Source: Lytechinus pictus (taxonomy: Eukaryota). Taken from it: a DNA stretch of 64,000 nucleotides. The notes under the pieces were generated by a model. The model was not told the origin of the DNA and searched no databases. It worked only from the letters and a program-made list of their open reading frames with translations. The position numbers and the translations under genes are program-made. Where the stretch lies: the NCBI RefSeq assembly GCF_037042905.1, contig NC_087251.1, positions 930,001 to 994,000 on the forward strand, in the 5' to 3' direction. Below are positions 17,236-58,066 of this stretch, piece after piece. How positions within the stretch are numbered: position 1 is the stretch's first letter; every line of letters begins with the position of its first letter.

Positions 17236-17724
17236 CTGAAAAAGCAAAAAGAAAAAAAACAAGAAAACAAGAAAAAAAAAAGAAAATTTGAAAACCAACA
17301 AAACACAAGAAAAAGGGCAATTTTCACACCAAAAAGTCAAATTCCAAAACATAATTTTCAAAAATAACAAAAATATATATAAATACCTGCAATATTTATG
17401 CTCTTGATATGACTGAAATTTGATAAAAATTTTCAAAATCAATCTTTATTTCCGGCTCTGTGATATGTGATCACTAAAGATACTGAGTGTTCAATTTTTT
17501 AATTCCTGGGTACATGAGCAACATGCAAACCAAACATGGTATGACTTTTATAGCATGTGCATATTTGACTTCTATAAAGGAAGCTGTCATGAAAGAAGCA
17601 TGCAACTGTTTGTTTTTCCTCTTAGTTTGTTAAATTAAATGTATGGTCCATAATTTGCAAACAATTTGACAGATGAATAGCAGCTAATATTGCCATAGCT
17701 TGGTAAATATTCAATTCTAATCTT

Positions 17725-28510: not shown

Positions 28511-30026
28511 GGCAAATATAGCGATCTTCAACGCTTATATATAAGCGTCGAAATTTGTAGCCATCTCCTTGTATTAGTCTATAATATACGACGTGTCAAA
28601 TTGTAGCGAACTAGTTCGCTATTTCCAGATCTCCTCTATATATATATACGAGGGGGAATTGTAGCGAACTAGTTCGCTATTTTCCAGATCTCCTCTATAT
28701 ACAAACGACGGGAAATTGTAGCGAACTAGTTCGCTATTTTCCAGATCTCTATATACATACGACTGGAAATTGTAGCGAACTAGTTCGCTATTTTTCGGAT
28801 CTCCTCGATATGTACACGAGGGGGAATTGTAGCGAACTAGTTCGCTATTTTCCAGATCTCCTCTATATACATACTACGGGAAATTGTAGCGAACTAGTTC
28901 GCTATTTTTCGGATCTCCTCGATATATACACAAGGGGGAATTGTAGCGAACTAGTTCGCTATTTTTCAGATCTCCTCGATATATACACCAGGGGGAATTG
29001 TAGCAAACTAGTTCGCTATTTCTCGGATCTCCTCTATAAATATATATACGAAGGGGCATTGCTGTAGCGAACTAGTTCGCTATTTTTTTATCTGACTACA
29101 TATACACGACCGGAAATTGTTGCTAACTAGTTCGCTATTTTTTTGATCTCATACTATGCAATATGGCAAACTGTAGCGAACTAGCTTGGCATTTTTTCCA
29201 AAGCTTACATTATTGTGAAGGCTTCAAAGTGAAAATCTGCAGGTTTTGGCTGTATATATTGGTGCCATATTGTCAAATTGTAGCGAACTAGTTCGCTATT
29301 TTTCGGATCTCCTCGATATTTACACGAGGGGGAATTGTAGCGAACTAGTTCGCTATTTTTTGGATCTCATACACCAGGCCCGGGGGAATTGTAGCAAACT
29401 AGTTCGCTATTTTTCGGATCTATATGCGACGGGAAATTTTGGCGAACTAGTTCGCAATTTTTCGGATCTCCTCTATAAAATTATATAGAGATCCGAAAAA
29501 TAGCGAACTAGTTCGCTACAATTCCTCCTTGGATATATAGAAGAGATCCGAAAAAGAGCGAACTAGTTCGCTACAATGCCCATCGTATATATATAGAGGA
29601 GATCCGAAAAATAGCGAACTAGTTCTACAATTCCCCCTCTTGTATATATAGAGATCAGAAAAATAGCGAACTAGTTCGCTACAATTCCTCCTCGTATATA
29701 TAGAAGAGATCCGAAAAATAGCGAACTAGTTCGCTACAATTCCTCCTTGGATATATAGAAGAGATCCGAAAAATAGCGAACTAGTTCGCTACAATTTCCC
29801 GTCGTATATATATAGAGGAGATTAGAAAAATAGCGAACTAGTTCGCTACAATGCCCCTCGTATATATATAGAGGAGATCTTTCTGAAAAATTGCGAACTA
29901 GTTCGCTACAGTTTGACACGTCGTATAATATAGACTAATACAAGGAGATGGCTACAAATTTCGACGCTTATATATAAGCGTTGAAGATCGCTATATTTGC
30001 CATCTATAAAATACCGAGCTCGGGTT
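28511..30026. mobile_element. Foldback element made of inverted minisatellite arrays
   Basis: ~110-bp near-perfect TIR (GGCAAATATAGCGATCTTCAACGC...); ~23 units of ~55 bp, each with palindrome TAGCGAACTAGTTCGCTA; orientation flips at ~29480; right end GAGCTCGGGTTA. Confidence 0.88.
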
Positions 30027-37700: not shown

Positions 37701-38001
37701 CCAAATTAACCCCCCCCCCCAAAAAAAAAAAAATGACATTTGATTATGAGCAATAAGTACATACACCAATGATTCATGAATCAAGTTAGGACAAAAAAGT
37801 TAAAAATATATCCACAGCCATGATTGGAAACTAAAATTCTTGATAACAATGAAAAATATTCAATTTCGAATGTCAATCTTGAAAAGGAAATAAGACAATT
37901 CTATGCAATGTATATTACACAGTAACAAGCTAGAAATGAGACACAATCTTCAAATACAAATTCATGATAAAAAAGGGATATAATGATGATCCTGTTTGAG
38001 A

Positions 38002-41000
38002 TTACTTCTTGGGCTTCAAACGGAACCAGTTTTGTTTCTTAGTATTGAGTCCAGAAGACAGAGAATTCTTGTTTGATCTATGGGAGATACCATTGCTAGC
38101 GACCTGACAATCTGCCCCAGGTGGTTTCTCTTGTAGCTGATTACCTCGCTGATTGGGAAGTGAACTGATCTGCTTTTTATTACTCACTGAATTCCTTATT
38201 TCAGGTTTGGCAAGTTGTCTTGAGGAATTAGGAGTATTGTCTGTAGCATTCAGACCCTTTCTCTGTTCAGCTTCAGAGTTTCCTTTGATATCTTCAGACC
38301 TTATCTGCTTTTCACTTGTTGAATACCTATCAGGAGACTCCTTATCCAAAACAAAAGAAAAGGTTTGTGTTGGCATGTGTCTAGTAAGGGATGAGCCACT
38401 CACAAAGTAGCTCAGTGTTGAAGAATAATTTCGGTCTGTGTAGATGTGTCTATTTGCTTCAACGTATGCTTCAACTTCCTCCAGTGTGGCCAGCGTCTGT
38501 GTAGATTTCATTTGATTTTGTACTCTTTTTGACCATTTCTTTTTGAATGATGGAAGTTCTCTTTCTGGAAGGCTCATATTATATGTCTGTGTTCTGACGC
38601 TGTTCTTTGGTTCTGTTCTTCCATCCTGTGATCCTGTCACAATGATACTTGGTTCCCTGTACCATTCTCCCATTGCCTGAATATGAGCCTCAACTTCTTC
38701 CACTGGTACATCTGTTTGACATAAACAATGAGCTCTTACTGCACAAGGGAAATCACCTGTGCTAGATGGAACCGCTGAAAGGATGGGTGAAAGTTCGTGA
38801 GGATTCAACTTCTCAAGAATCGAAGGTGATTTACTAACACATCTCTTCTCCACCATTTTCTGTGGTGTTCTTGAAGGTCTTTTGGCGTCCCCTTTATCAT
38901 GCTCAATGGGTGGGTACACAGGCTTGACTTCATCTTCCAAGGAGGGTGATAATTCCAAGTTGTAAGTCTGGGTTCTCATATCACAAGTTGCTTTTATTTT
39001 TATAAGGCTTGGTCTGGGTATTACAAAACATGGTTCCAAATAGACTTTTCCTTTTGAAGTAACATAGTCCTCCACTTCCTTGACCGTTGCATATGTCTGA
39101 GTAGATGAGGTACTAGTTTCCTCTCTAACTGGTACATCTTTCTGGAGAGCCACTACACTGCATTCTAAGTCATCTGCTTTGGCAAAAGTTGACTGTGTTG
39201 TATCTGATTCAAACCTCCTCTTAGCTTTCTTAATACTTCTGTCAACTACATTCTCCAATAATTCTTCCTCACCAGGCATCTTTCTCTTCTTTGGTGTCTT
39301 TGAAGATTTGTCAAATGCATTAACAAGTTTCTTGTGTGGGCTTTCTCTCTTTCCTGAATAAGCAATTTCCATAATTTGTTTTCTAGGCCATCCCATCTTT
39401 TTCTTAATCTCAGAAGTATCACTTGGTTGTTTGCTATGACTTTCTTTCATATCAGAATCTGCGACATCCGCAACTTGTTTTCTCTGCCTTCCCATATGTT
39501 CCTTAATCTCAGAAGACCTTTGCATCTTTTCTGACTCAGCTTCCTTTCTAGGCCTTCCCATCTTTTTCTTAATCTCAGAAGTATCACTTGGTTGTTTGCT
39601 AGGACTTTCTTTTATATCAGAATCTGCGACATCCGCAACTTGTTTTCTCTGCCTTCCCATATGTTCCTTAATCTCAGAAGACCTTTGCATCTTTTCTGAC
39701 TCAGCTTCCTTTCTAGGCCTTCCCATCTTTTTCTTAATCTCAGAAGTATCACTTGGTTGTTTGCTAGGACTTTCTTTTATATCAGAATCTGCGACATCCG
39801 CAACTTGTTTTCTCTGCCTTCCCATATGTTCCTTAATCTCAGAAGACCTTTGCATCTTTTCTGACTCAGCTTCCTTTCTAGGCCTTCCCATCTTTTTCTT
39901 AATCTCAGAAGTATCACTTGGTTGTTTGCTAGGACTTTCTTTTACATCAGAATCTGCGACATCCACAACTTGTTTTCTATGCCTTCCCATATGTTCCTTA
40001 ATCTCAGTAGACCTTTGCATCTTTTCTGACTCAGCTTCCTTTCTAGGCCTTCCCATCTTTTTCTTAATCTCAGAAGTATCACTTGGTTGTTTGCTAGGAC
40101 TTTCTTTTATATCAGAATCTGCGACATCCACAACTTGTTTTCTATGCCTTCCCATATGTTCCTTAATCTCAGTAGACCTTTGCATCTTTTCTGACTCAGC
40201 TTCCTTTCTAGGCCTTCCTATCTTTTTCTTAATCTCAGAAGTATCACTTGGTTGTTTGCTAGGACTTTCTTTTATATCAGAATCTGCGACATCCGCAACT
40301 TGTTTTCTCTGCCTTCCCATATTTTCCTTAATCTCAGAAGACCTTTGCATCTTTTCTGACTCAGCTTCCTTTCTAGGCCTTCCTATCTTTTTCTTAATCT
40401 CAGAAGTATCACTTGGTTGTTTGCTAGGACTTTCTTTTATATCAGAATCTGCGACATCCGCAACTTGTTTTCTCTGCCTTCCCATATTTTCCTTAATCTC
40501 AGAAGACTCAGCTTCCTTTCTAGGTCTTCCAATATTTTTAGCTGTATGTTCCTGACTTTGATTATTTGCCTTACTTGTTGCAATAAGATGCAGTCTCAAA
40601 GTAGTGGATTCCTTTGAACATGATAATGGGCTGTCAACTTTCCCATCTTCTTTACTTCTTTTAACACTTGAGCAAACTCTAGGCTTCCACACCTTGTTCA
40701 TGCTTTCAGGAGAGATTTGAAAATCAATATCTTGTGTACTCTTTCGCTGTTTAGAATCACTTCTGGAGATTGAATGTGCTTTTTCACCATCTGATTTTCT
40801 GTTGATGGCAGGATGTGACTTTTTCCCAAACACAGGTGAGGGTTCCTGACATTCATCAGGTTCGATTAATGTTTCATGGGTAATGGCATTGTTTGATGTA
40901 GTTTTCCAGGGACTCCGCATGTGTGAACAGCAGTACTTCTTCTTGCGTAAATCTTTTGATAGATTTAGCCCCATGGTATCCATTGAAGAGCCAATATCTG

Positions 41001-44000
41001 TCTTTCCTTGGGCCAATGTTGGACTTTGCGATGAGTGGGTAGGCTTTGGTTCCTTTCTGGTGCTTCTACTCATTCTTTCTTCAGAATTTAAGAGAATCTG
41101 GACATCATCTTTTGCTTCTTTCCACACATCATCTCCTGTCCACAATTTCAAGAGTTCAGTTTTAGTTCTTCTATATTTTGAAGATTGAACTGATTTTTTT
41201 AGTTCCTCTTTCAACAAACTTCTGCACATCTTTCCTGTTTGAGACTCTGCTTCTGAACTTGTGAATGCAGTCTGGTTATCACCTGAATCCATTACACCTT
41301 CAGCCGCTGCTGAATTTTGTGGAGTGGTTATGTAGTCTGTCTGTCCTCTATCAGATTTTTCTTTCTTTTTAATTCCCTTTTCCTTTTCCCGTGTCAATTG
41401 AGGAAATTCTCTCTGATTTTTTAACTGCCGATTGTTTTTCTGTGGCATGATTTTTCCATCACTCATTTCAGGCAATTTTGCAAGTTCTCTATTGAATAAC
41501 TCGCCTTCACTGCTGGGAGCAGGCTCTATGTTGGGAGTTACACACATCACATTGTATGTCTGCGTATATCTACTCCTTAGTTTTCCATCTTGGATGAGTG
41601 TAGAAGACAGATTACCTGGTTCTCTGTAATGCTGGCCCATGGAAGCAAGATAGGCTTCAGTTTCATTTATACTAGCAGTTGTTTGTGATGATCGATCAAT
41701 CAGCTGCACATGTCTCCCTACATCTTGCAAACTTAAGTTACTCTTACTGTCAGCTGACTTGGTAGAAGTTTTGCCAGTGTTTAAAACAATATTAGACCTC
41801 TTGTGGATTTTACCAGGGCTTTCATTAACTTTAGTATCATCCTCTAGTTCTTCCTCTGTTAACAATGATACATCAAGCTGGGCATCTTTCTCATTTCTAT
41901 GTACACCACTGGCAGTTTTATCAGGAAATTCCCTATCACCATGCTCACTCTTGCCTCTACTGCTCTCAGACATTACATCATTATCTATAGCAAAGATTTT
42001 GAGTAAGCTTTTCCTTGACTTTCCCTTTTGACAAGCTTCCTCTGTACCAATATTACATGCAATGTCAATTCCTGTTACACTGATTTCCATCTTTTTGGAG
42101 GAATGAGGTGAAATATCATTGCAAGTTGGCTTCTCCATTTGTGAATTTCCATTTCTAGATCCTGCCATTAAACCACTCAATGCCTGGTTTTGCCTCCCTG
42201 ACCTTTTAGAAGAATTTTCAATTGATGGCCTTGTATGTTTTGGTGAGCATCGATCGAGAACTGTCTCTGCTGAAATGAGCTTGGTAGATGGCATTCGATC
42301 CTTGATTATGCAAGGGGATATGGTCTGCTTTCCAACTTTATTTGGAGAGAAACTGATACCCTTGAGACCATGTTTCTGTGCTTTGTTACGTGTCATTCTG
42401 GCATCTTCCTCAAGCAACTTGGACATATCATCTCTGAATTCCTTCCAGGTTTGATCATCCTTCCAAGCAGTCAGAATTCCCAAGGAATTTCTCTTATGCC
42501 TCTTTACACTGGATGATCCTCTACGATTCACATTCATTTCACCTGTTTCTTTGATTTCATTAATGGATGCAACAGATGATTCTGCTTCATGATCTAATAC
42601 TGCTTCACCAGAATCCTTGTTTCCTGTTGCACATGCACCATCTTCATCATGTTTTGGGTCTAATTTGTTACTCTTCTTTGAGGAAGTCAGCCCAGAATCA
42701 CATGGCATTTCAATGCCTGTGGTATCAAGGATTGTTATTGGGGTGGATTTTGCCCTCGCATCTTTGTTTATGACACTTCTTGTTGTCCTCCCATCAACTT
42801 GAATAAGGCTGACCAGATCACCTTTTGCTTCTTTCCATGTAATATCATCCTTCCATGAAGTAAGAGCATGTAGCTCTTTGGATCCCTCTGCTGAAACTGT
42901 CAAATTTGTTGGCTTGTCTGGTTCCTGTGGTTTATTACTCTGCTTGTTGCAGGAAATTGGATGGGAATTCTTAGCAGGAGCATCACTGGCTGATATTTTC
43001 TGCTTGACCATATACTTCGGATTTGTTGATCCTTTTGATTTTTTCCATTTGCCAGTAAATGAATCGCGTTTCGGGGTGCGATATCTATGACATGATTGAT
43101 GTAGGGGAGAAGGTGAATGAAGGGTAAGTTTCTGTTTTTTAGGCGATGGAGAGCATAGTGCTGTATCATCTGCCAACTTTATTCCATCTTTTTTCAAAAC
43201 ACTCCTTGTTGCTCTCCCATCAATCTGAAATAGATGATCAAGATCACGCTTTGCTTCTTTCCAAGATGTGTCATTCTTCCAAGATGTCAAATCTTTCACC
43301 AAATTGCTTTGCACATGCCGTAGGCCTTCGATAGATAATGCAACAACAGGGGTTTCACTCTCCTCTGACAAATTAACAGCAGCCCTAGCAGGTTCAGAAT
43401 TACCATGAGAGTCAACCTTGGGAGATGCTAAGCTTTGAATATTAGATATCCTTTGGGGGTAAACAATTGGTTTATGATTGATATCAGGACAGCTTGCATT
43501 GATCTCGTTTTCTTTTCTCTTAGCTGGCGTTGACCCATCTTTCTTCAATCCATTCCTTGTTGCTCTACCATCAACCTGTGAGAGTAAGGAAAGATCTTGC
43601 TTAGCCTCTTTCCAGGTTGAATCATCCTTCCATGATGTCAGATCATTCAGCAAACTTTCACCTTTTTTTCTTTTTTGTCGTGTAGAGTTTGATGGATTTA
43701 TTTGTGATTCTACTTCCTGTGAATGAGAAATTGGTATTTTCATTTGATCAACATCTGCATCATCTTCATTGGACAACGTGCTCTCAGCATTGCATGATTT
43801 ACCGGAAAGTGGTAATTTCTGAGCAATCTCCTCTCTGCTCAAACCACCAGCTTTTCTTTCCTCTCCTATAGTTTTAGAAGGTGTTTTCCCAACATTCTTC
43901 AAAGCACTTCTTGTAGCCCTACCCTCAACCTGAAATAACTGAACAAGATCCTGCTTGGCTTCTTTCCATGTTGTGTCATCTTTCCAGGACGTTAAAGAAT

Positions 44001-45680
44001 GAAGCAAGTTCTTAGTTTTGACTGGAATACCTTCCGTGTCTACAGGAACTATTTGTTCCTTAATCTCTTTAGAGAGCGGTAAAGGAGAGTTAGATTTTTG
44101 GAGAGAGGAGGCATGACCATTGTTGTTCTTGGTATCACATTGTTTATTCGGAAGAGGTAATTTCTGAGCATTGTCTTCTGTGCTCAAAGCACTGGCTTTT
44201 CTTTCCTCTCCTGTAGATTTAGAAGGTGTTTTCCCAACATTCTTCAAAGCACTTCTTGTAGCCCTACCGTCAACCTGAAATAACTGAACAAGATCCTGCT
44301 TGGCTTCTTTCCATGTTGTATCATCTTTCCAGGACGTTAGAGAATGAAGGAAGTTTTTAGTTTTGACTGGAATACCTTCCGTGTCTACAGGAACTATTTG
44401 TTCCTTAATCTCTTTAGAGAGCGGTAAAGGAGAGATAGATTTTTGGAGAGAGGAGGCATGACCATTGTTGTTCTTCGTATCATAATGTTTATTCGGAAGA
44501 GGTAATTGCTGAGCATTGTCTTCTCTGCTCAAACCACTGGCTTTTCTTTCCTCTCCTGTAGATTTAGATGGTGTTTTTTCAACGTTCTTCAAAGCACTTC
44601 TTGTAGCCCTACCGTCAACCTGAAATAACTGAACAAGATCCTGTTTGGCTTCTTTCCATGTTGTATCATCTTTCCAGGACGTTAGAGAATGAAGCATGTT
44701 TTTAGTTTTGACTGGAATGTTTTCAGTGTCTACAGGAACTATCTGTTCCTTGATCTCTTTTGAGAGAGGTACAGGAGAACTGGATTCTGGAGAATCTAAG
44801 CAGGAGGAAGATTCAAGTAAAGCATTTGAGTCCAGCAGCTTCTCTGATTGGGTTGAATTATGAAAGCCATTGCTGTCATTCAAGGATGCTTGCGTTTCCT
44901 GGCTTTCTCCTGAACTAGCTGATGCTTTAGATGGTGACCTCCTCCTCCACAGGAAAGATCCAACTGAATCCAGGATTCTGCTACCCCAGCTCAACTTCAC
45001 AGATGACTGGTTGCTAGTATAATGATTAACGTTAGTTTGTGTTGACATATTTCCAGAAGCAGATTGAAGGATATCACCCTTTTCACTCAACAATGATGAT
45101 TCTTGTGCTCCAGTCTCACCTGCAAGGCTACAAGAATTAAGATCTAATTTCCTGGCCTTCTTGTATTTCAATTTATTACTAGTCTTGCTATTCTTGCTCT
45201 TCTTGGATGAGCTGGCAGCTGGAGATAGAGATGGCATGCTGAGATTAGGAAGATTTATGTTTTGAGATGGGGGTTCCAGGGTCACGTAGCAATCTAACTG
45301 TGGAAGCAGTTCCCTGCACTTGGTAACGGATAATTCTCGGGAACTGCCATGCCCAGAATTTCCCCACTCATATGTTGGTGACAATGACACTCTAGGAAAC
45401 TTCATAGTTTGAAAGGGTGTAGATTTTGGAGAACTTGAAAGAGAAGATTGTTGAGTAGACACAGGTGATAAAGGTGGAATGATTGGGGTACTGCTCTGTT
45501 TCATCTTCTTTACAGGTCTGGGTGTTGTTGGGGGAGGACGTGGACGCTTCCCTTGGGACCTAATGGCTGATCTTGCTCGAGTGCCACTCTGACCTGGGGT
45601 TCTATTCTGCTGTGTTCCAAGGGAAGATGATGATTTTGAAGTATCATATCCTTCATTGGCAGCATTTTGCTCCATAAAAC
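38002..45680 (-). CDS. G2E3/PHF7-like gene, giant terminal coding exon (~2,559 aa, repeat-rich, largely low-complexity)
   Basis: Uninterrupted ORF. Acceptor tttatttcag at 45681-45690 gives GT-TTT-ATG, completing the phase-1 Gly codon from exon 49556-49677. Stop TAA at 38002. Confidence 0.88.
39380..40535 (-). repeat. Coding tandem repeat, 165 bp / 55 aa, ~7 copies, GRPRK AT-hook-like motifs
   Basis: ACTTGGTTGTTTGCT recurs at 39421, 39586, 39751, 39916, 40081, 40246 and 40411. Confidence 0.95.
43800..44780 (-). repeat. Coding tandem repeat, 345 bp / 115 aa, ~3 copies
   Basis: TTTCCAGGACGTT at 43981, 44326 and 44671. Confidence 0.95.
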
Positions 45681-47426
45681 CTGAAATAAATATAAAGCAT
45701 AAATAAGTTCAAATAAATGATTCAATAACTCATTCTTATCTATTGGCATTAAATACATTTCTTTGCAAGAATATGATATTCTAGTCCCACATGTAGACAT
45801 CCAGGTGCAGTAGAAGGCCCTAATTTGCATCTCATTAACGCCCCTAGTACTTTAGATTCTCAAAGAATTTCTCATACACATCGACACCTGGCAGATCCAA
45901 GTAAGAATCTTGTCTGTCTTATTGTGCACTTCGGTGGCCTTTCATGTGCTGAAATTTTCATGAAACAGAATGTAATAAGAAATATTACATTACATTTTAT
46001 GAGATTTTATATTTCAAACAAGGCTCACCCCTCAATTATTTGATGACACAACAGTAGCGCAAATCTCATGCTTATGGAAAGCATATATACATATTCATGA
46101 TCTGGTGACAGTGTTCGCTTGCTGGTCTTTAATTTTGAGAGAAAATCATATAGGCCTTGTATAGGTCTTTATAACACAAATGAGACTCAACGTAGAGCGA
46201 GAAATTACATCAAATTATGTCATGCAACGGTGAATGCTCTGCTTGCAATCTCGAAACATACTCAAATTATGTTTCAAACATGTAGGACCGTAGCAAGGAT
46301 TTAAGCAATACATGATATACGTGAGGATCAATTTCGACGTTGATTTTGGAGTGTGTTTTTTTATTGACATAACCATGATAAAAAGGTGAATCTTAGGTGA
46401 GTTTTAAATTGGAATTGTTTCATTTTGGATGTAAATAATTGGACTAGTGTATGGTTTATAAATTTATTACTACCTTTATTTTGTAAGTTTCCATACCAAT
46501 AATAATAGTAATGATGGAGATTTTGGCTTCAAAATTAGTTAATTTTATACACTATTTGGCTTCAAGTGTTTATGCAAATCACGTGCGCCCAGCAATGATC
46601 GTGAGGAAGGTAATTGGGGTATAGGCCTGCATTCATGTCAGTAAATTGAGCTTGACATCAACTGAAATGGATCTTTCAGTGTAAAAAATGAAGGGATTAT
46701 TTCTTACTTTCTTGATAGTTTCCAATTAAAACAAAATAATTTCAAGCAAATATGGAAAATAAGTACTTCATATATGTAAAGATGTGAAATTTCAGAAACC
46801 TATGGGGAAGGTTTTTTCTTTTGTCCCCCTGCCAGTTAACCCTAACTGCCCGTTTTCAAATGGCGTTTAAATGTTTTTCAAAATTAATATGACTCAGGCC
46901 TGCTTTCTAATCATGTTTAATTGTCATCATACCATACTAGATATACAATGGGTATAAAACAAATGTTTAAAAAATGTTATAAAAATGAAATACCCTGAAG
47001 CCTCTCCCACATCTAAATATAGGTACAAGCCTTCTTAAGCAAATGGCAATAATTATGACTGTTGAATAAGGTATTCACTTCAGTCAGCATCACTTACTTT
47101 ATAATATCATGAAAAATAACTTGCACATGAAAGTGGAGATTGATTTGATGTTTTTCCTTTCTAACTTTTTTCCTTGCCCGACAACCCCCCCCCCCCCTTG
47201 AATGCCACGACCACCGCGAGATCTGTTTTACATGCAGCCATGAACAGAGTAAAATAATATTTTTTAATCGCTTTTATTCCTTGAGGTTATGCTTGAGAGA
47301 GTGTATAGAACTACACAAAACAAAATGAAGTCAAATTTTGCAGAAAAGTAGATCAAAATCTGTGAAAGATATGACGGCATGGTATAAGAACGGGGTGACT
47401 TATTAGAATTCCTTTTTTTTCATCCC

Positions 47427-49555: not shown

Positions 49556-49677
49556 CTCTGGTGAAAGTTGAAGTACAATCTTTACATGCCCAGTCATCTA
49601 AAGCACTTAGTAATCCACCACAAGACACATGACACCCAGCTGAACCGCATAGATCACATAGTACAATTTCCCATTGA
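49556..49677 (-). CDS. G2E3/PHF7-like exon: third zinc finger (PHD)
   Basis: QWEIVLCDLCGSAGCHVSCGGLLSALDDWACKDC; ctcag/gtatgt; phase 2 to 1. Confidence 0.92.
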
Positions 49678-49980
49678 CTGAGATGGAAAAAAAATCAAAT
49701 TGAAAACAAAAAATATCATGAGGAATACATCAACTGAGTGATATAATATTCTTTGGTTTTCTGGATCATGTTTAAGAACTCCCAGTCAAATGGCAGTCCC
49801 TTTACTGTGCATAGTACAACATACATGAAATGCACTCTGTCATTACGTCAGTACTCTTGGTTTAAAGGTAAAGGGGTGTACCAGTAGTATATTTGTTTCG
49901 TTTATATCCTCTGACACAGAGTATTGTATTTTATTACATCTAAATCAGATTAAAACCATAGTGTATGAAAGACAACCTAC

Positions 49981-50097
49981 CCTGATTGTGTAGAATACTT
50001 TCTGCCTTTTGGACATCTACATTTACTGACATCACATTGGTTGTGTCTCTCATAGAGTTCTTGGTATGCTGAACTTCCAAATTCCCAATCAGCATCC
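49981..50097 (-). CDS. G2E3/PHF7-like exon
   Basis: DADWEFGSSAYQELYERHNQCDVSKCRCPKGRKYS, matching the family motif DAxWE...AYQEL...CD...CxC; ccag/gtaggt. Confidence 0.92.
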
Positions 50098-50649
50098 CTG
50101 GAAAACAAACAAAGACTATCAATTATATATCATTTGAAAAGGGTCATATTCTAATAGTACTTTTGTCTATTTAACAGATAGGATCTCAAATATTAAAAAA
50201 CATGCATTGTAGCAAATTCACTTCATGCAAAAAAGAAAATGAGGAAATCCAGATGTCCACAGCTCAATTCTTGATTTAAGGTTTAAAAGTCACATACTGA
50301 TTTAAGAGAAGCAGTTAATGGTAAACTTTTGTTAAAATCAAAGAATTTGGAAAGAAAATTACATGCTTATACCATTTTAATGGCAAAAGGATTTAATTTG
50401 TAAGTAAATGTCCATGTTGTACACTAACTAGACTAGGGTAATAATATGCAGAACTTACAAACATTATTATTATTATTATTCAGTTGGAACATGAAAATCA
50501 ATGTGCATTTTCCTGTTCCTGGCATCCATTTATAAGAATGCTGCATTCCATCTGATAAAACCTTTATTAAAAAATAGAAAGAATATTTCTGATTTGACAA
50601 AGTCCTAAAAACTCATTAATGTATTGATAGAATACATCAATTTCCTTAC

Positions 50650-50753
50650 TTTTCTGGTAGGTAGATACCAAATTTCTTCATTTCGTCTTGAAACTCATTC
50701 TCATTGTTACAGATGGCACATCGGAAGAAGTAACCAGCACTCAAAGCTTGCAT
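50650..50753 (-). CDS. G2E3/PHF7-like exon: end of RING
   Basis: [34 protein letters not shown](K); ttcag/gtaagg. Confidence 0.92.
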
Positions 50754-51478
50754 CTGAAGACACATATGAAACAATTACTGGTAGTTTTTTTTATGTCTTT
50801 ACTATCATCCAATTTTGATAAAAACCTACCAGAGCCCCATTGCATAAAAGATACTATTATATTAACTTTGCATTCCAATGATAACTACCATGGTAATGAT
50901 GATCCACAGGCAATCAAAATCAAGGATTCCATGCAAGTTACCATTGCATGGCACAGTTACATAACTTTTATGCAATGGGGCCCAGAAAGGGTTTTTTTTT
51001 TTTGGAGGGGGGTGTTAATTCCTCTTGAAATCCAATTCAAAGAGCTTCATTAAAATCATAAAAAGATATTTGAACAATCTTGGTCAGATTTGACACTCAT
51101 GACCCTTTCCATTAGAACCTGATGAGTAGGATGTCTACCCATTCCAACCTACTGCCATTCATTTATTACAACATGTAGTACTAATGATGTCTGAAAAATA
51201 AAGACTCATTTACAATATCAATCATGACATGTACTACATCCTCATCCCAAAGTCATTGAAGTTTTAATGATAGAATATTTTGATAGAACACTATACCAGA
51301 TATGGTGAGTCTGGTGACTCATTGGTGGAGCACCTACTTCATTTATGGTAGATCCTGATCACTAGTAATGTCATAACAAAGACCTTCTTGTCAGGAGATC
51401 AGCATACAAAAATGGGTAAATGTATGTTATGTAGGGCTCACTGGAAAGTTGGTATCATAGCTAAAGTATCTACAATAG

Positions 51479-52678
51479 CAAGCCTTGAAATAAGCGGGCG
51501 CTGAGCGCAAATTCGCGCTCATAAAGCCATCAATTACGCCCATACAGCCCCAAAATCATCAAAATTTTGACGACCGGGCGCAAATATTTTCCAGGTAATT
51601 GCGCCCGCCGTGAGTGAGCAGTGAAGCCATATCATACATGTAATTTAAATATCTGAAAAGCCAAAATCAAGTAACTTTCAATTTATGATAAGCACAATTT
51701 CAAATTGCCAAGTGCGTCTTTTTTTCTGTACCGGTACCGGGGTACCATAAAAAGTGAGCTACGTCCGTCTTTTTTTTCTGTAATACATGTGCGCGCGTGC
51801 TTCCAGTAGCGGTTTTTCCATACTTCACCATATGCAATTTCTAATGCACACATTTCCAGTTGGGATATCACAATTCTGCGACATAGTAATTCGAATTGCA
51901 CAGGAGATAAATCCCTGTTCACAGCACGTACGATGTGCGAGTCTTTTATCCTGAATTTAGACTCTCCCAGAATGAAAGGCATTTTCTGTGGAGATCTGCG
52001 TTTTCAAATAACTTGTGAAAAACTTAAGTTAAGGTACATGAACCTACAATACATGTACATAGCCTGTGGCTATGTGCTGGAATTTGAATAGACTGAGTAC
52101 GATATTGATTTCATTTCTTTAACATAATTTATATACAATCCAAGTGCACCTCACTGTCACAATCACACACAAACACTCACCCACATCCGTGATTCTAACC
52201 ATGAAAAAAAAAACTTAAAAATTATTTTTTTTTTCTAAATTTATTATTATTTGATCTGAATTCTCTCTTTCTCCATCTCTCTCTTTTTTTTTTATATTTT
52301 CATTTTATTCATTTATTTAGATTTTTTTGGGGGGGTTCATTGTTCGTGGTTCATTAAAGATGAAAAATAGATAAGCCCATGTGTGTGTGGTTGTAAAGGG
52401 GATGTGGAGTGAGGGTGTAAAAACACACTTAAACATTTAAATCTGATTTCTTAAATGTCAGCCTAATACTTAGCATGCTATTCATGTACTAATTAAAAAA
52501 TTGCAGGAGCTGCGCTTACTATAAACAAATTTGCGGTGTGGTTCACCGTTATGTATATATTTTTTTAATTGCCTCCGGTTCCAGAAAATTGCCCCCGGTT
52601 CCTGTAAAAAGCCCGTGAGCCGGGAGCAATTTTTTTTTTAAATTGCCCCTGGTCTGCAGCTGCTTATTTCAAGGCTTG
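51479..52678. mobile_element. hAT-like MITE
   Basis: TIR CAAGCCTTGAAATAAGC / GCTTATTTCAAGGCTTG; imperfect 8-bp TSD TACAATAG/TACCCTAG. Confidence 0.72.
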
Positions 52679-53159
52679 TACCCTAGGTATCATTGTGTAA
52701 CCCTACATGTAGGTATTTTTTAATTCAAGGTTTATTAAAAACATGAGTCACAGCCAAATGGCTAAAATTGGTCATATATATACAAGGTACAAACAATTAA
52801 AAGACTCATTACATATTTCAAACATTAAAAAGCAGTAACCTTTGTAAAAACTTACATGAGAAATATGTATATAGTTAATAAGGCAAGAATACTAATTAAG
52901 GCAATACAAATTAATATACATGTACATAAGATAATGAAGAAGTGGTAATGTAAGAATTAAAAAAAAATAAGCAAGTTGTAAAAGATCAATAAAAATACAA
53001 ACCTGATATGTAAGTACTTATGGTATTGCTTTCAAATCAGTAATGGGTTTATTGATTGGGCATGTCTTTATTCAGGAGATCTATGAAATATGGTATGGGG
53101 CTATTTCGAAATTGATTTGTTTTACATTATCGTGCAGCCCAAAGCTGGAGTTTACTAAC

Positions 53160-53328
53160 CTGGACACATTGTCTATGGAGCCAAGTACCTTTGCAGCATG
53201 GTGTCTTGAGTACACTATTGCTTGGTGTGGTCTCTACAGGCTCCATACATATTGGACATGTCCCTTTACTTGGTGAGCAAGAGGAAGGTAATACCTTCTG
53301 AACAGGACGATGCTTCGCGCAGTAAGAT
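53160..53328 (-). CDS. G2E3/PHF7-like exon: end of extended PHD (ePHD), start of RING
   Basis: SYCAKHRPVQ...CPICMEPVETTPSNSVLKTPCCKGTWLHRQCVQ; ctcag/gttagt. Confidence 0.92.
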
Positions 53329-53424
53329 CTGAGTTAATAATAATAATAATTTCCATTTTGCCTTTCTCATAAAGACTGGCCAGGAGAGGGATGATTTGAG
53401 ACACCCCCCTTCAGATTTTGGCTG

Positions 53425-54016
53425 TTAAAGGAGAATGAAACTCTTGGAGCAAGTTAGCTTTTGTGAAAGCAGAAAAATCAAAGAATAAGATCAACAAAAG
53501 TTTGAGTAAAATAGGACTAGCAATAGAAGAGTTATGAGCATTTGAATGTCGAGATCACTAATGCTATGGAGATCCTCCCATTGGCAATGCGACCAAGATC
53601 TATGATGTCACAGATGAACAACTCTCCCCTTTTGGACGCTGAAAATATTCCCCAAAACATCTCTTATTGCTCATTCTAATCATATGACAAACGATTCATC
53701 AATGATATAATGTTGTGAAACCTCTCTACTTGTCCTCTCATAAAGAGAACACCGCACCTTGTGATAGACTCTATAAAAGTGAGAATATAAGTGAAATAAG
53801 TACTAAAGTAATGAGGGAGTTGTACGTGTGTGACATCACAGATCTTGGTCGCATTGCCAATGGGAGGATCTACATGGCATTAGTGATCTCAATATTCAAA
53901 TGCTCATAACTTTCTTATTATTCATTCAGTCTTCCTCAAACTTTCACCAATATTTTTCTTTGATTTTTCTCTTTGATATGGATTCAGCTGGTTTCAAGGG
54001 TTTCATTCTCCTTTAA
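53425..54016. mobile_element. MITE family B copy
   Basis: Near-identical to 12117-12716; TTAA flanks. Confidence 0.85.
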
Positions 54017-54573
54017 TAGCACAATCACAATTAAAATCTGCACACAAATTGTCCGCGACTTGGTCTCCATGACTGAATAATACTTTTTCCACAAACTGTT
54101 TTATCTTTCATGCCTCCAGGTCCACATATGATAATGGAAAGTTTGGAAACCTAGCATAGTTTAAAACAATTCAATAGTTTGAATCAAATCTGACATCGTA
54201 CACAAAACTAAGCAACATTTTGTGAATAAAAACAATGAGATATGACAAGCAAAAAGAAAAAGTAGACCAACAGCACAATAATATGTCCAAAGTTGCCCAG
54301 ATAAACTTGTGAAGCGATTGAAAATGACTTTTGAAGTCACTGCGATATTCCCTCATACATGTAGCATGGATCATGACATCACAACTAAATTATCATGTCA
54401 CAAGTTTTACATGTACCATGCAATTTTAGATAATTTTTTCTAGACTTGAAGCATGTAATAGTAAGGCAATATGCAGGCTACATCTACATGTAAATACTAT
54501 GGTAAAAAATACTTGGTTTTATCACACCACAAAATATCTAAATGAGGCTTTAGAAAAGTAGTAGAAAACTTAC

Positions 54574-54698
54574 ACAAAACTGTCATAGAATAGGTAGATT
54601 GCTTCCTCATCTACACCACATCCATAATGATAGATCTGATGACATGCCTTCACTGAGCAACCTACTGAAGCTCCTTTCTTCTTACAGTACTTACATTT
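54574..54698 (-). CDS. G2E3/PHF7-like exon: ePHD core
   Basis: KCKYCKKKGASVGCSVKACHQIYHYGCGVDEEAIYLFYDSF; tgtag/gtaagt. Confidence 0.93.
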
Positions 54699-55293
54699 CT
54701 ACAGTAAAATACAATGATAAACACAGGATTATAAATTTTCATCCGAAATAACTATGCCACGGGGAATAAAAACTAGAAGACTTTCAGGGCTTAAAAAAAA
54801 TTAAATCCAGCAGCGGAATGGTAAAAAAATGTTAGGGGGGCTAAATAGGCCCCCACCCCTTGGGCTAGTGGGCTAGATAGCATCTATATTCAAACCTTTA
54901 ATTAACCAAGTAAAGCTATGGAAATAATAGTACTGAGCAGGATCTCTCAATTTCCTTGCTTCAATTTATCGGCCAATAACTCTATAATCCTTATGCATAG
55001 ACATGGACGCATTGTTTCCTCTGTTACTCTACTGTAGAACTGCAGTGGGTCAAAGTAACTTAAAGTCACAAACAGAAAAAAACGGCAGCCAGATATGGGC
55101 AACAAGAGACAAGTTATTTCATACGGGCCTCTTTTATACTAATTGAAGTTCAATGTTCTGAATCCATGTTTTATGAATTGAGCATTGCTATAGTATGTCA
55201 CACAATCTTCAAAGAGCTTTATATTGATGGGTTTCAGTTCTGCTGACCTTTATCTGCACATGCTCATACTGAAATTCCTTATTGTTGACTTAC

Positions 55294-55395
55294 CAGTTTT
55301 TGTGCCCTTTTTCTCTCAGCTAAGATATCCTTGATTAAGAATCCCTCAATCCCTTCATGGCTTTCACCACGCTGACTGAGTCCACAAGCAAATAG
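55294..55395 (-). CDS. G2E3/PHF7-like exon
   Basis: LFACGLSQRGESHEGIEGFLIKDILAERKRAQKL; tgcag/gtaagt; phase 0 to 0. Confidence 0.93.
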
Positions 55396-55514
55396 CTGCA
55401 AACACACACAAATGCATCATTATATTCAAAAGAAAGTTCATCATGACATTCAGTTCATGTTGTAAAAGCAGAAAAATGAAGAACCATCCTCATGAATATT
55501 TAGTGAAATTCTAA

Positions 55515-57157
55515 AACAAGTGGAACGCCTCTGGCAGTCTCGCCTGCATTACGCGATTTAATATAGCAGCAGTGCTAACTTTGAAAACTACTATAAAATA
55601 ATCATTCACAAAAACACCATTCATATAATGACATAATACCGCGTTCACTGACCATAAATGACATTTGAACGGTGACTAAGTTAAAGGACAAGTCCACCCC
55701 AACAAGAAGTTGATTTGAATAAAAAGAGAAATATCCAACAAGCATAACACTGAAAATTTCATCAAAATCGGATGTAAAATAAGAAAGTTATGACATTTTA
55801 AAGTTTTGCTTTATTTCACAAAACAGTTATATGCACATCCTGGCTGGTATGCAAATGAGGAGACTATGACGTCATCCACTCACTATTTCTTTTGTATTTT
55901 ATTATGTCAAATATGAAATATGCTACTTTTCTCCTCATTGGCAAGTGATACAGCGATTAATTCCTCCCTGAACATGTGGCATTAGGCGGATTAGCATTGT
56001 TTAATACTATATGTTTCAGTCAAGTTGCTCCTTATTGTCAAATCTATAAAAAATGAAATATTGAATAATCCAAACAATAAAAAACAAAAGAAATAGTGAG
56101 TGATGGACATCATCGACTGACCCACCAAGTTGTGCATATCACTGTTTTGTGAAAAATAAGCGAAATTTTAAAATGTCATAACTTTCTTATTTTACATCCG
56201 ATTTTGATGAAATTTTTTAGCACTATACTAGTTTGATATTTCTCTATTTATTCAAGTCAGTATTTTCCTGGGGTGGACTTGACCTTTAAGACTTGTCAAC
56301 TACACCCATGTCCACATTTCATTCACTCTATCCATAAACTTTCAAAGTTACATGTATGATGGCAATTAAACAATTACCCCAACATGGCTTAAGTTTATTG
56401 ACCTTAACTAGACTAACCTTAACTGACCTTTGACCTTGGTTTTGTGACCTGAAACTCACAGGGGATGTTCAGTGATACTTGATTACTCTTATATCCCAAG
56501 TTTTATGAACTAGATCCATAAACTTTCAGAGTTAGGATGGTAATTCAACAAATACCCCCAACACGGCCAAAGTTCATTGACCTTAAATGACCTTTGACCA
56601 TGGTCATGTGACCTGAAACTCGTTAGGATGTTCAGTGATACTTGATTAACCTAATGTCCAAGTTTCATGAACTAGATCCATATTTTCAAAGTTATGATAG
56701 TAATTCAACAAATACTCCCAACTTGACCAAAGTTCATTGACCCTAAATAACCTTTGACCTTGGTCATGTGACCTGAAACTCGAGCAGGATGTTCACTAAT
56801 ACTTGATTAACCTTATGCCCAAGTTTCATGAACTAGGTCCATATACATTTTTAAGTTTAATATGTCATTTAAAAAACTTAACCTTCGGTTAAGATTTTGA
56901 AAATAATTCTCCCAACATGGTCCAAGTTCATTGACCCTAAATGACCTTTGACCTTGGTCATGTGACCTGAAACTCAGGCAGGATGTTCAGTAACACTTGA
57001 TTAATCTTATGTCCAAGTTTCATGAACTAGGTCCTAGTACTTTCAAAGCTATGACATAAAAAAAAAAAACGTAACCTTGCAGATTTTAATATTGGCACTG
57101 CCACCTTTGGAAAAGCAGTACCGATAGTTTCAATCTGCTATGCAGGCGAGACAAAAA
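55515..57157 (-). mobile_element. Helentron-associated (HINE-like) element with internal tandem repeats
   Basis: Subterminal IRs GTCTCGCCTGCAT (55537) / ATGCAGGCGAGAC (57140); four ~160-190-bp units containing TGACCTTTGACC; A-rich flanks. Confidence 0.7.
55681..56289. mobile_element. MITE family A copy nested in the HINE-like element
   Basis: TTAAAGGACAAGTCCACCCC...GGGGTGGACTTGACCTTTAA. Confidence 0.85.
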
Positions 57158-57287
57158 TGTAGAGCTAATTCTGATATGATATCAAGAAAACTATTTCCTG
57201 TAAATTGTAATGTGAAGAATTTCCATTGAAACAAGCAAACGCCATGAAAAACAGAACTGTATCTAAAAGATAAATTAAAGTTCTCAC

Positions 57288-57388
57288 CATACAATAGTAA
57301 TGAGCACAGATTCCACTTTCTTCATGGTGAAGGAATTTACCATAACGTTGAACTGATTGCTCAGAACTGTCACAGAACACACAACATC
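57288..57388 (-). CDS. G2E3/PHF7-like exon: pre-PHD C2HC knuckle (most 5' coding exon found; start exon not located)
   Basis: CCVFCDSSEQSVQRYGKFLHHEESGICAHYYCM; tttag/gtgaga; needs an upstream phase-1 exon. Confidence 0.9.
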
Positions 57389-57537: not shown

Positions 57538-57794
57538 TTCATCATCATCACCACCACCACCACCACCATCATCATCTTCATTACCATCATCATCATCATC
57601 ATCATCTTCATTACCATTACCATCATCATCATCATCTTCATTACCATCATCATCATCATCATCATCTTCATTACCATTACCATCATCATCATCTTCATTA
57701 CCATTACCATCATCATCATCATCTTCATTACCATCATCATCATCATCATCATCTTCATTACCATCATCATCATCATCATCTTCATTACCATTAC

Positions 57795-57828
<34 letters not shown>

Positions 57829-58066
57829 TTCATTACCATTACCATCATCATCATCTTCATTACCATTACCATCATCATCATCATCATCTTCTTCATTACC
57901 ATCATCATCATCATCTTCATTACCATTACCATCATCATCATCATCATCATCATCTTCATTACCATTACCATCATCATCATCATCATCATCATCTTCATTA
58001 CCATTACCATTACCATCATCATCATCATCATCATCATCTTCGTTACCATCATCATCATCATCATCA
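57538..58066. repeat. Compound trinucleotide microsatellite (ATC)n with CTTCATTACC interruptions
   Basis: Directly visible; explains the poly-S, poly-D and poly-M ORFs. Confidence 0.97.

What the first reader, a model, noticed from the sequence alone, without database searches (positions are those of the whole stretch)
38355..41690. Four-copy module bracketed by paired (T)QT motifs: candidate multivalent LC8/DYNLL1 platform
Seen: SSQTTASINETEAYLASMGQHYREP..RYTQTYN (~41540-41690); STQTYATVKEVEDYVTSKGKVYLEP..MRTQTYN (~38945-39110); LCQTDVPVEEVEAHIQAMGEWYREP..VRTQTYN (~38570-38725); KSTQTLATLEEVEAYVEANRHIYTD..MPTQTFS (~38355-38510). Consensus: QT-x5-ExEx[YH]h..G..Y.EP-x~20-TQT[YF]. Copies are diverged at DNA level yet keep both QT anchors, implying selection. 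Known: (K/R)xTQT is the canonical LC8-binding motif, and ASCIZ/ATMIN and 53BP1 use multiple copies. Inference: up to 8 LC8 sites with a conserved helical spacer could dimerise this E3. I know of no such link for the G2E3/PHF7 family.
Basis: partly seen in the sequence, partly recalled or inferred. Interest (0 to 1): 0.8.

Follow-up and report, generated by a model that had tools for sequence, protein, structure and literature searches.

The report
Sea-urchin double-QT module, probable LC8 sites
A sea-urchin chromatin ubiquitin ligase of the PHF7/G2E3 family carries four copies of an undescribed 50-residue docking module whose two ends look like binding sites for the hub protein LC8, although the second end fits a DNA-damage phospho-docking site equally well and no binding has been shown.

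Summary
Four 50-55-residue modules lie in the 7.7-kb last exon of an ePHD-RING-PHD gene without HECT (identical to Lytechinus pictus LOC129265183). Three were checked in RNA and are transcribed. The module recurs in L. variegatus, Strongylocentrotus and Diadema orthologues and in no other protein among 1.84 billion searched; it matches no Pfam or PDB entry. QT-to-QT spacing is 41-44 residues in 15 of 16 copies, although the linker sequence drifts freely.

The LC8 reading is only partly supported. The anchors and several flanks resemble measured LC8 ligands, but 7 of 8 sites break a published flank rule and only 2 of 8 are (K/R)xTQT. The two ends differ. Site 1 is LC8-like and runs in fixed register into a helix and YxEP. 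Site 2 is T-Q-T-[Y/F], an aromatic that LC8 disfavours, and is exactly the pT-Q-x-F/Y motif that RNF8 and Pellino FHA domains bind in MDC1.

Best explanation (0.45): weak multivalent LC8 sites zip two tails together. Rivals: FHA docking or a phospho-switch, another partner, or one module clamping one LC8 dimer. The nearest module is about 1,330 residues from the zinc-finger head, so dimerising the RING is unlikely.

The parts
41548..41700 (-). QT module 1 (site 1 at 41677-41700, helix+YxEP at 41617-41676, site 2 at 41554-41577)
   Evidence: 33 of 52 identical to the S. purpuratus orthologue; not covered by the RNA lay
38956..39114 (-). QT module 2 (site 1 at 39091-39114, helix+YxEP at 39031-39090, site 2 at 38962-38985)
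   Evidence: 36 of 54 identical to S. purpuratus; transcribed; AlphaFold2 gives one helix only
38575..38733 (-). QT module 3 (site 1 at 38710-38733, helix+YxEP at 38650-38709, site 2 at 38581-38604)
   Evidence: 41 of 54 identical to S. purpuratus; transcribed
38353..38514 (-). QT module 4 (site 1 at 38491-38514, helix+YxD at 38431-38490, site 2 at 38359-38382)
   Evidence: 41 of 55 identical to S. purpuratus; transcribed
38002..45680 (-). Giant last coding exon (7679 bp to the stop codon) encoding the disordered tail of about 2560 residues; no HECT domain
   Evidence: AG acceptor, frame continuous with the upstream exons; 82% of 51-residue windows have negative FoldIndex; no HECT in Pfam; no splice joint listed in 37923-39375
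49556..57388 (-). Seven exons for ePHD, RING and PHD: 57388-57288, 55395-55294, 54698-54574, 53328-53160, 50753-50650, 50097-49981, 49677-49556
   Evidence: all AG/GT; the exons in order give one frame that contains P0002 letter for letter; PF13771; PHF7 8JWJ E=7e-60 with the S. purpuratus orthologue
41044..44706 (-). Eight copies of a second repeat (Trp-rich helix followed by R-x-[T/S]-R-[S/N]) in the same tail
39380..40507 (-). 165-bp tandem array (6.8 copies) encoding AT-hook-like G-R-P-R-K units between modules 1 and 2
   Evidence: the S. purpuratus orthologue passes the Pfam AT_hook cut-off

Best explanation
The module is a bipartite short-linear-motif cassette in the disordered tail of the sea-urchin G2E3/PHF7 orthologue, and its most likely partner is the LC8 (DYNLL) dimer. 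Shown: the repeat, its conservation, the gene it sits in, transcription of copies 2-4, predicted disorder with one helix, and an LC8 gene family in this genome. Inferred: each QT segment adds a beta-strand to an LC8 groove. Two chains are zipped in register, with LC8 dimers at site 1 and, more weakly, at site 2. The acidic helix and YxEP that follow site 1 without any indel pack on their twin or on the outward Tyr(+2)/hydrophobic(+4) face of a site 2 strand, as helices next to LC8 sites do in Panoramix, Swallow and the dynein intermediate chain. The likely outcome is a dimeric, more avid chromatin-binding tail, not activation of the distant RING.
For: Q at 0 in 16 of 16 modules at both sites; T at +1 in 16 of 16 at site 1 and 15 of 16 at site 2; -1 only S/T/C (four proteins, orthologues not independent). 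These are the buried anchor positions of LC8 ligands (PMC6607443). [STC]QT anchors fall inside modules in 8 of 10, 8 of 8 and 7 of 7 cases in three genera. Position -4 is polar in 19 of 24 sites against a 0.45 background. Near matches to measured ligands, by eye: S. purpuratus module 1 site 1 shares 6 of 8 residues with KIBRA QT1 (0.45 uM); its module 3 site 1 shares 5 of 8 with AMOT (1.2 uM); module 4 site 1 here shares K-x-T-Q-T-L with Bmf (0.7 uM). Rule-breakers bind in multivalent clients: a human ASCIZ site with Phe at +2 and a fly ASCIZ site with Tyr at -2 are listed as binders, and KANK1 binds through sites that fail singly. The tail is disordered and neither AlphaFold2 run gave a domain that would bury the motifs. 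The genome has 19 Dynein_light matches. Nuclear precedent with two sites plus dimerising helices: Panoramix.
Against: 7 of 8 sites here and 21 of 24 in three genera break at least one published flank rule. Site 2 has P/D/E at +2 in 0 of 12 and Tyr/Phe in 11 of 12; 0 of 62 measured rows have Tyr and 1 has Phe. The one Tyr(+2) peptide of PMC6607443 Table 1 (KCNQ2) and both Pro(-2) cases there (one weak, one non-binder in Table 2) bind poorly or not at all. Many TQT peptides do not bind. Linkers of 30-41 residues weakened duplex formation in ASCIZ, and the linker here is about 35. A ladder does not explain why spacing stays at 41-44 while linker identity between copies is 0-2 of 13. The helix has an unremarkable hydrophobic moment (36th-75th percentile of the protein).
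Confidence: 0.45

Rival explanations
1. Site 2 is a phospho-docking motif. A PIKK kinase (ATM/ATR) phosphorylates the Thr of T-Q, and pT-Q-x-Y/F recruits an FHA-domain E3 of the RNF8 or Pellino type, as the TQxF motifs of MDC1 do. Site 1 may still bind LC8. Phosphorylation would evict LC8 from site 2, making a switch.
For: TQx[FY] occurs 5, 5 and 3 times in the three tails against 0.22, 0.26 and 0.17 in shuffles. The acceptor is Thr in 16 of 16 site 2 copies but in only 7 of 16 site 1 copies, as pThr-specific FHA domains need. +3 F/Y preference and RNF8/PELI binding to MDC1 TQxF are reported in PMC11884936. A Pellino FHA gene is in the genome. A phosphomimetic at -1 of a 53BP1 TQT site abolished LC8-dependent bridging (PMC12187134).
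Against: The x position is Thr in 15 of 16 copies, whereas MDC1 has C, A, P, P. No S/T-Q cluster overall: 25 observed against 26.5. No BRCT domain. Motifs are 74 to 860 residues apart rather than packed in 70. Basic residues often precede the TQ, which ATM is said to dislike (recalled). An RNF8 gene was not identified here. The 53BP1 paper argues its own TQT site is not phosphorylated after irradiation.
Confidence: 0.2
2. The module folds on binding, or is a marginal strand-helix-strand-strand mini-domain, for a partner other than LC8. The QT triplets are then exposed beta-strand residues and the helix, YxEP and Y-N-hydrophobic positions form the true interface.
For: Helix and YxEP are as conserved as the anchors: 13/20, 16/20, 17/20 and 15/20 identical to S. 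purpuratus against 3-7/8 for site 1. The Tyr of YxEP is kept in 15 of 15 full modules with no indel from site 1. Spacing is fixed. Most sites break LC8 flank rules.
Against: AlphaFold2 gave only a helix (pTM 0.28) for one module and pLDDT 39 for modules 3+4, both with shallow alignments of 6-7 rows. One Diadema copy has lost the helix yet keeps both anchors 26 residues apart, which suggests separable linear motifs. No family or fold match.
Confidence: 0.2
3. Cis clamp: one module fills both grooves of one LC8 dimer. The chain leaves site 1, lays its helix across the end of the dimer where the Tyr(+2) of site 2 emerges, and loops back to enter the second groove in parallel. The protein would then cap or sequester LC8 rather than be dimerised by it.
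For: Spacing of 41-44 in 15 of 16 modules with a freely drifting linker. The anchors always come as an unlike pair. LC8 binds its two peptides in parallel (PMC5963919 figure legend), so the C-terminal ends of both sites would meet the helix; this is my geometric inference. 1:2 single-chain species are abundant for ASCIZ constructs with long linkers, though the authors read them as one site filled.
Against: No such mode appeared in the passages read; in-register duplexes are described as the rule (PMC12017986). One Diadema copy has a 26-residue spacing and no helix.
Confidence: 0.12
4. Neutral remnants of old internal duplications with no function of their own.
For: The tail is full of internal duplications.
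Against: Modules are 71% identical to S. purpuratus (151 of 213) against 55% (795 of 1454) for the rest of the aligned tail. Anchors persist in Diadema, where the whole protein is 35% identical, while paralogous linkers have decayed to 0-2 of 13.
Confidence: 0.03

Closest known systems
Panoramix (SFiNX/PICTS complex) with LC8/Cut-up, PMC7919418
   Same: Nuclear chromatin factor with two QT-type LC8 sites next to helices that add their own dimerisation.
   Different: Panoramix has one closely spaced pair with the helices downstream; here the helix lies between the two anchors, the cassette is repeated four times and site 2 ends in Tyr/Phe.
ASCIZ/ATMIN and 53BP1 multivalent LC8 domains, PMC5963919, PMC10046861, PMC12187134
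   Same: Several weak QT anchors in a disordered region of a nuclear protein; some proven sites break the flank rules.
   Different: Their sites are separated by variable unstructured linkers; none was described in the passages read as a repeated two-site cassette with fixed spacing and a conserved helix.
MDC1 TQxF motifs binding RNF8 and PELI1/2 FHA domains, PMC11884936
   Same: Four T-Q-x-aromatic motifs with an invariant Thr in a large disordered chromatin protein.
   Different: MDC1 motifs vary at x, sit within 70 residues and come with BRCT and FHA domains; none of these holds here.
PHF7 (PDB 8JWJ; PMC10760634) and vertebrate G2E3
   Same: ePHD, RING and PHD in the same order with the RING zinc ligands kept.
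   Different: No HECT domain (present in 3 of 15 hits, all fish); a tail of about 2560 residues that PHF7 lacks; none of those 15 relatives carries the module.

Membership tests
LC8/DYNLL client motif | Anchor: small or branched residue at -1, Gln at 0, Thr/Val at +1 | tested here: met
   8 of 8 sites are [STC]QT, 6 of them TQT; 23 of 24 in three genera have Thr at +1. SQT occurs in 4 of 62 measured rows, CQT in none.
LC8/DYNLL client motif | Flank rules of PMC6607443 (no hydrophobic +2, no aromatic -2, large -3, polar -4, no internal Pro) | tested here: not met
   1 of 8 sites here and 3 of 24 in three genera break no rule, using my coding of the paper's text. Exceptions are known in multivalent clients.
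LC8/DYNLL client motif | Canonical (K/R)xTQT | tested here: not met
   2 of 8 sites here, 1 of 8 in S. purpuratus, 1 of 8 in Diadema.
LC8/DYNLL client motif | Motif lies in a disordered region, not in a folded domain | tested here: met
   82% of tail windows have negative FoldIndex; the modules themselves are borderline (-0.04 to 0.10); no fold predicted with shallow alignments.
LC8/DYNLL client motif | Conserved in orthologues | tested here: met
   L. variegatus, S. purpuratus and D. antillarum; one Diadema site 2 has decayed.
LC8/DYNLL client motif | Adjacent self-association element | tested here: inconclusive
   Helix predicted at pLDDT about 85, but its hydrophobic moment is ordinary; self-association not tested.
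LC8/DYNLL client motif | Measured, anchor-dependent binding to LC8; LC8Pred score | not testable with these tools
   Needs ITC or pull-down; the LC8Pred matrices were not available.
MDC1-type TQxF FHA docking motif | T-Q-x-[F/Y] with Thr as acceptor | tested here: met
   11 of 12 site 2 copies; Thr in 12 of 12; enriched about 20-fold over shuffles.
MDC1-type TQxF FHA docking motif | Free x position and a tight cluster of motifs | tested here: not met
   x is Thr in 15 of 16; motifs are 74-860 residues apart.
MDC1-type TQxF FHA docking motif | BRCT reader or S/T-Q cluster in the same protein | tested here: not met
   No BRCT in Pfam; [ST]Q 25 observed against 26.5 expected.
MDC1-type TQxF FHA docking motif | Reader present in the genome | tested here: inconclusive
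   Pellino FHA found; 11 FHA exon matches, none assigned to RNF8.
MDC1-type TQxF FHA docking motif | Damage-induced phosphorylation and FHA binding | not testable with these tools
   Needs phosphoproteomics and phosphopeptide binding.
PHF7/G2E3 family | ePHD-RING-PHD head with RING zinc ligands | tested here: met
   PF13771; E=7e-60 to PHF7 8JWJ over residues 15-294 of the S. purpuratus orthologue; ligand pattern.
Vertebrate-type G2E3 | C-terminal HECT domain | tested here: not met
   No HECT in Pfam; frame ends at 38002 and no joint leaves the coding part in RNA.
PHF7/G2E3 family | Ubiquitin ligase activity on histones | not testable with these tools
   Inferred from PHF7 (PMC10760634, passages).

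The most novel reading that the evidence does not exclude
Each module is a switchable clamp. One chain fills both grooves of one LC8 dimer, with its helix capping the end where the site 2 Tyr emerges, so LC8 is sequestered or used as a folding core rather than as a dimeriser. Phosphorylation of the invariant site 2 Thr then releases LC8 and exposes a pT-Q-x-Y site for an RNF8- or Pellino-type FHA ligase, coupling a PHF7-like histone E3 to damage signalling.
Probability: 0.08. Interest if true: 0.82.

Novelty: new variant of a known kind. Interest (0 to 1): 0.5.

Why it matters
If LC8 binds, this is a natural, four-times repeated test case for how spacing and an intervening helix set the stoichiometry of multivalent LC8 complexes, and a link between LC8 and the PHF7/G2E3 chromatin ligases that my searches did not find in print. 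A 55-residue peptide is enough to test it. If the module clamps one LC8 dimer in cis, it would be an exception to the view of LC8 as a dimeriser and a ready-made LC8 inhibitor scaffold. If site 2 toggles between LC8 and an FHA domain, it would be an overlapping-motif switch. The limits are that the module was found only in sea urchins and that every partner is inferred from short motifs.

Tried and rejected
Complex prediction of module 2 with two LC8 chains from this genome: no answer. Scores were 0.01 and 0.00 against a mark of 0.34, the alignments were not used and no controls were folded. It is counted neither for nor against binding.

AlphaFold2 of one module and of modules 3+4: no domain.

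Known-family searches for the module were blank: Pfam, PDB sequences (best E 1.2), ESM Atlas. Word-indexed search with the four-copy alignment among proteins of 110-2000 residues: 0 of 1489 candidates.

Three of the six hits (P0007-P0009) were dropped as spurious: they are unrelated tandem-repeat proteins and score at most 5.6 bits with the 16-module profile.

The module is not related to the Trp-rich repeat (HHalign probability 0.1%). No copy of the module was found elsewhere in the genome (only 4 candidates were scored). The Reprolysin and ATP-synthase epsilon Pfam hits on the tail have no passing stretch and were rejected as repeat-summing artefacts.

My first module regex was mis-specified and matched nothing, so its null was discarded and redone. 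The sequencing-run search listed no holder on record as RNA; raw RNA runs of the same species label were laid instead. The primary RNF8 structure paper was not held and a search for its selected peptide found nothing, so RNF8 flank preferences beyond +3 are not cited. A position-specific matrix from the published LC8 ligands was not built; the comparison with that table is by eye. Earlier findings of the scan: none.


Full report
OBSERVATION. The four segments are real and lie in one open frame of 2568 codons on the minus strand (38002-45708). Their spans are 41548-41700, 38956-39114, 38575-38733 and 38353-38514. The strict pattern occurs 4 times and in 0 of 5000 shuffles; profiles built from three copies recover the fourth at 21-31 bits against at most 4.8 in 200 shuffles. 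Six anchors are TQT, one SQT and one CQT, and only two are (K/R)xTQT.

THE GENE. The region is 100% identical to a protein named Lytechinus pictus LOC129265183 (P0002, 2806 residues). Seven upstream exons and the 7679-bp last exon have AG/GT boundaries and give one frame containing P0002; the start-codon exon was not found. The head is ePHD-RING-PHD: PF13771, E=7e-60 to PHF7 8JWJ with the S. purpuratus orthologue. There is no HECT domain. Among 15 shorter relatives, HECT is annotated in 3, all fish. Three stranded RNA runs of one study, about 6% of each read, cover 37923-39375 at depth 5-23 with first mates on the plus strand, which in most such libraries means minus-strand RNA, and list no joint there. 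So modules 2-4 are transcribed. E3 activity is inferred from PHF7 (PMC10760634, passages). A sea cucumber g2e3 is reported as male-biased and inside a sex-determination region (PMC9128100, passages), which hints at a germline role.

DISTRIBUTION. A seven-row profile against 1.84 billion representatives gave 6 hits at E up to 0.001. Three are orthologues (L. variegatus, S. purpuratus, Diadema antillarum; names) and three are unrelated repeat proteins that I dropped. None of 15 other G2E3/PHF7 relatives has the module; none of them is named as a starfish or sea cucumber, and four carry no species name, so those groups remain untested. No second locus was found in this genome. Pfam, PDB and Atlas searches were blank. 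Diadema and the camarodonts split over 200 million years ago (recalled).

ANATOMY. Over 16 modules from four proteins (orthologues, so not independent): site 1 is S-[S/T/C]-Q-T (S at -2 in 13, Q-T in 16). It runs without any indel into an acidic helix and Y-x-[E/D]-P (Tyr in 15 of 15 full copies). A linker follows whose identity between paralogues is 0-2 of 13, against 9-12 of 28 for site 1 to YxEP. Site 2 is T-Q-T-[Y/F]-N-hydrophobic (T-Q in 16, T in 15, Y/F in 15). Q-to-Q spacing is 41-44 in 15 of 16; one Diadema copy lacks the helix and has 26. Modules are 71% identical to S. purpuratus against 55% for the rest of the aligned tail outside the tandem array. The tail is disordered by composition. 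AlphaFold2 predicts just the helix for one module (pTM 0.28) and nothing confident for modules 3+4 (pLDDT 39); both alignments were shallow, so this is weak evidence against a domain.

FOR LC8. The invariant positions are those that LC8 buries (PMC6607443). Anchors are confined to modules in 8 of 10, 8 of 8 and 7 of 7 cases. Position -4 is polar in 19 of 24 sites against 0.45. Several sites closely resemble measured ligands in DataSheet 1 of PMC12057147: KIBRA QT1, AMOT, Bmf, CIZ1 and ICE1. ASCIZ binders with Phe at +2 or Tyr at -2 exist, and weak sites cooperate in KANK1. Helices next to LC8 sites add dimerisation in Panoramix, Swallow and the dynein intermediate chain. The genome has 19 Dynein_light matches. 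All reads of the three RNA runs at 38727 carry an allele that puts Arg at -3 of module 3 site 1, as in L. variegatus, removing its one rule violation.

AGAINST LC8 AS STATED. Seven of 8 sites in the reference sequence and 21 of 24 in three genera break at least one flank rule. Site 2 never has P/D/E at +2 and has an aromatic in 11 of 12; none of 62 measured rows has Tyr there and one has Phe (by eye). Module 4 site 2 has Pro at -2 in three species. Linkers of this length weakened duplex formation in ASCIZ. The helix is not strongly amphipathic. The first module is about 1,330 residues from the end of the head, so RING dimerisation is an unlikely consequence.

Site 2 is T-Q-x-[F/Y], the motif that ATM phosphorylates in MDC1 and that RNF8 and PELI1/2 FHA domains bind, with a stated F/Y preference at pT+3 (PMC11884936). 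It occurs 5, 5 and 3 times against about 0.2 expected, always with Thr, whereas site 1 tolerates Ser and Cys. Pellino is in the genome; RNF8 was not identified. Against a pure FHA reading: x is Thr in 15 of 16, there is no S/T-Q cluster and no BRCT. A site that satisfies both the LC8 anchor and the FHA rule suggests a switch; a phosphomimetic at this position abolished LC8-dependent bridging in 53BP1, though those authors argue the site is not phosphorylated after irradiation.

MECHANISM. I commit to a multivalent LC8 cassette that zips two tails in register with help from the helix (0.45). Rivals: FHA docking or switch at site 2 (0.2), a different partner or mini-domain (0.2), a cis clamp on one LC8 dimer (0.12), neutral remnant (0.03). 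Taken together, some LC8 binding is about 0.6 likely. All partner assignments are inferred.

LITERATURE. Searches for PHF7/G2E3/LC8 (14 papers with two terms, 12 listed; three pair LC8 with one of the genes, each with a single LC8 mention, listing only), for sea urchin with these terms (25 of 375 listed), for LC8+TQT+ATM+FHA+phosphorylation (one paper, listing only) and for single-chain binding (25 of 75 listed in the latter) showed no description of this module, of an LC8 link to this family or of a cis clamp; the library lacks most subscription journals. Seen: PMC6607443 parts 1-4 of 8; PMC12057147 abstract, sections 14 and 31, DataSheet 1 whole, DataSheet 8 part 1 of 2, Table 10 first five places per term, Table 4 searched without hits; PMC11884936 passages and sections 7-8; PMC3078936 abstract; passages only of PMC12017986, PMC10046861, PMC10760634, PMC3995210, PMC5963919, PMC3705210, PMC7919418, PMC12187134, PMC9128100, 10.1101/2025.07.16.665182 and 10.1101/2023.09.15.557927. 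Unread supplements (the rest of Table 10, DataSheets 2-3, bioRxiv files) may hold LC8 binders with Tyr at +2.

VERDICT. A real, undescribed module under selection, found only in sea urchins, made of known motif types in a new arrangement. New variant of a known kind; interest 0.5.

Noticed in passing
window 41044-44706 (-), eight copies: A second undescribed repeat: Trp-rich helix followed by R-x-[T/S]-R-[S/N] (8 observed, 0.31 expected). Five copies in S. purpuratus and four clear copies in Diadema; no Pfam hit on the single unit and no PDB hit. The Arg motif recalls nucleosome acidic-patch anchors (recalled, untested). It may deserve as much attention as the QT module.
   Followed up: partly
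window 39380-40507 and 43807-44778: Recent coding tandem arrays: 165 bp x 6.8 at 98% with AT-hook-like units, and 345 bp x 2.8 at 93% duplicating the Trp-rich repeat. S. purpuratus has its own array with a shorter unit; Diadema has none.
   Followed up: partly
G000:C2 and G000:C11; L001-L008, L012-L021: An expanded LC8 family: 19 matches, 18 nearly full length without a stop, clustered on two contigs; the C11 paralogues are 58-66% identical to L001. A divergent paralogue could be the module's partner.
   Followed up: partly
window 38515-38574 (-): The linker between modules 3 and 4 keeps P, E-L, K-x-K-W and R as far as Diadema, suggesting a further helix or a localisation signal.
   Followed up: no
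window 57288-57388 (-): The named model P0002 starts at an internal Met and omits the first zinc knuckle of the ePHD, which is intact in this exon and present in the L. variegatus and S. purpuratus models.
   Followed up: yes
window 38002-38031 (-): The C-terminal nine residues (Trp-Phe-Arg with a basic end) are identical in L. pictus, L. variegatus and S. purpuratus although the preceding region diverges; the Diadema models end differently.
   Followed up: no
window 38727: All reads of three RNA runs differ from the reference here, changing Cys to Arg at -3 of module 3 site 1.
   Followed up: yes
window 16483-17445 (-): A 320-codon stop-to-stop frame rich in His and basic residues with no Pfam hit; probably an exon or the antisense of another gene.
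   Followed up: no
window 2311-3726, 28598-29932, 57539-58066: Non-coding tandem arrays of 110, 54-57 and 6 bp period.
   Followed up: no
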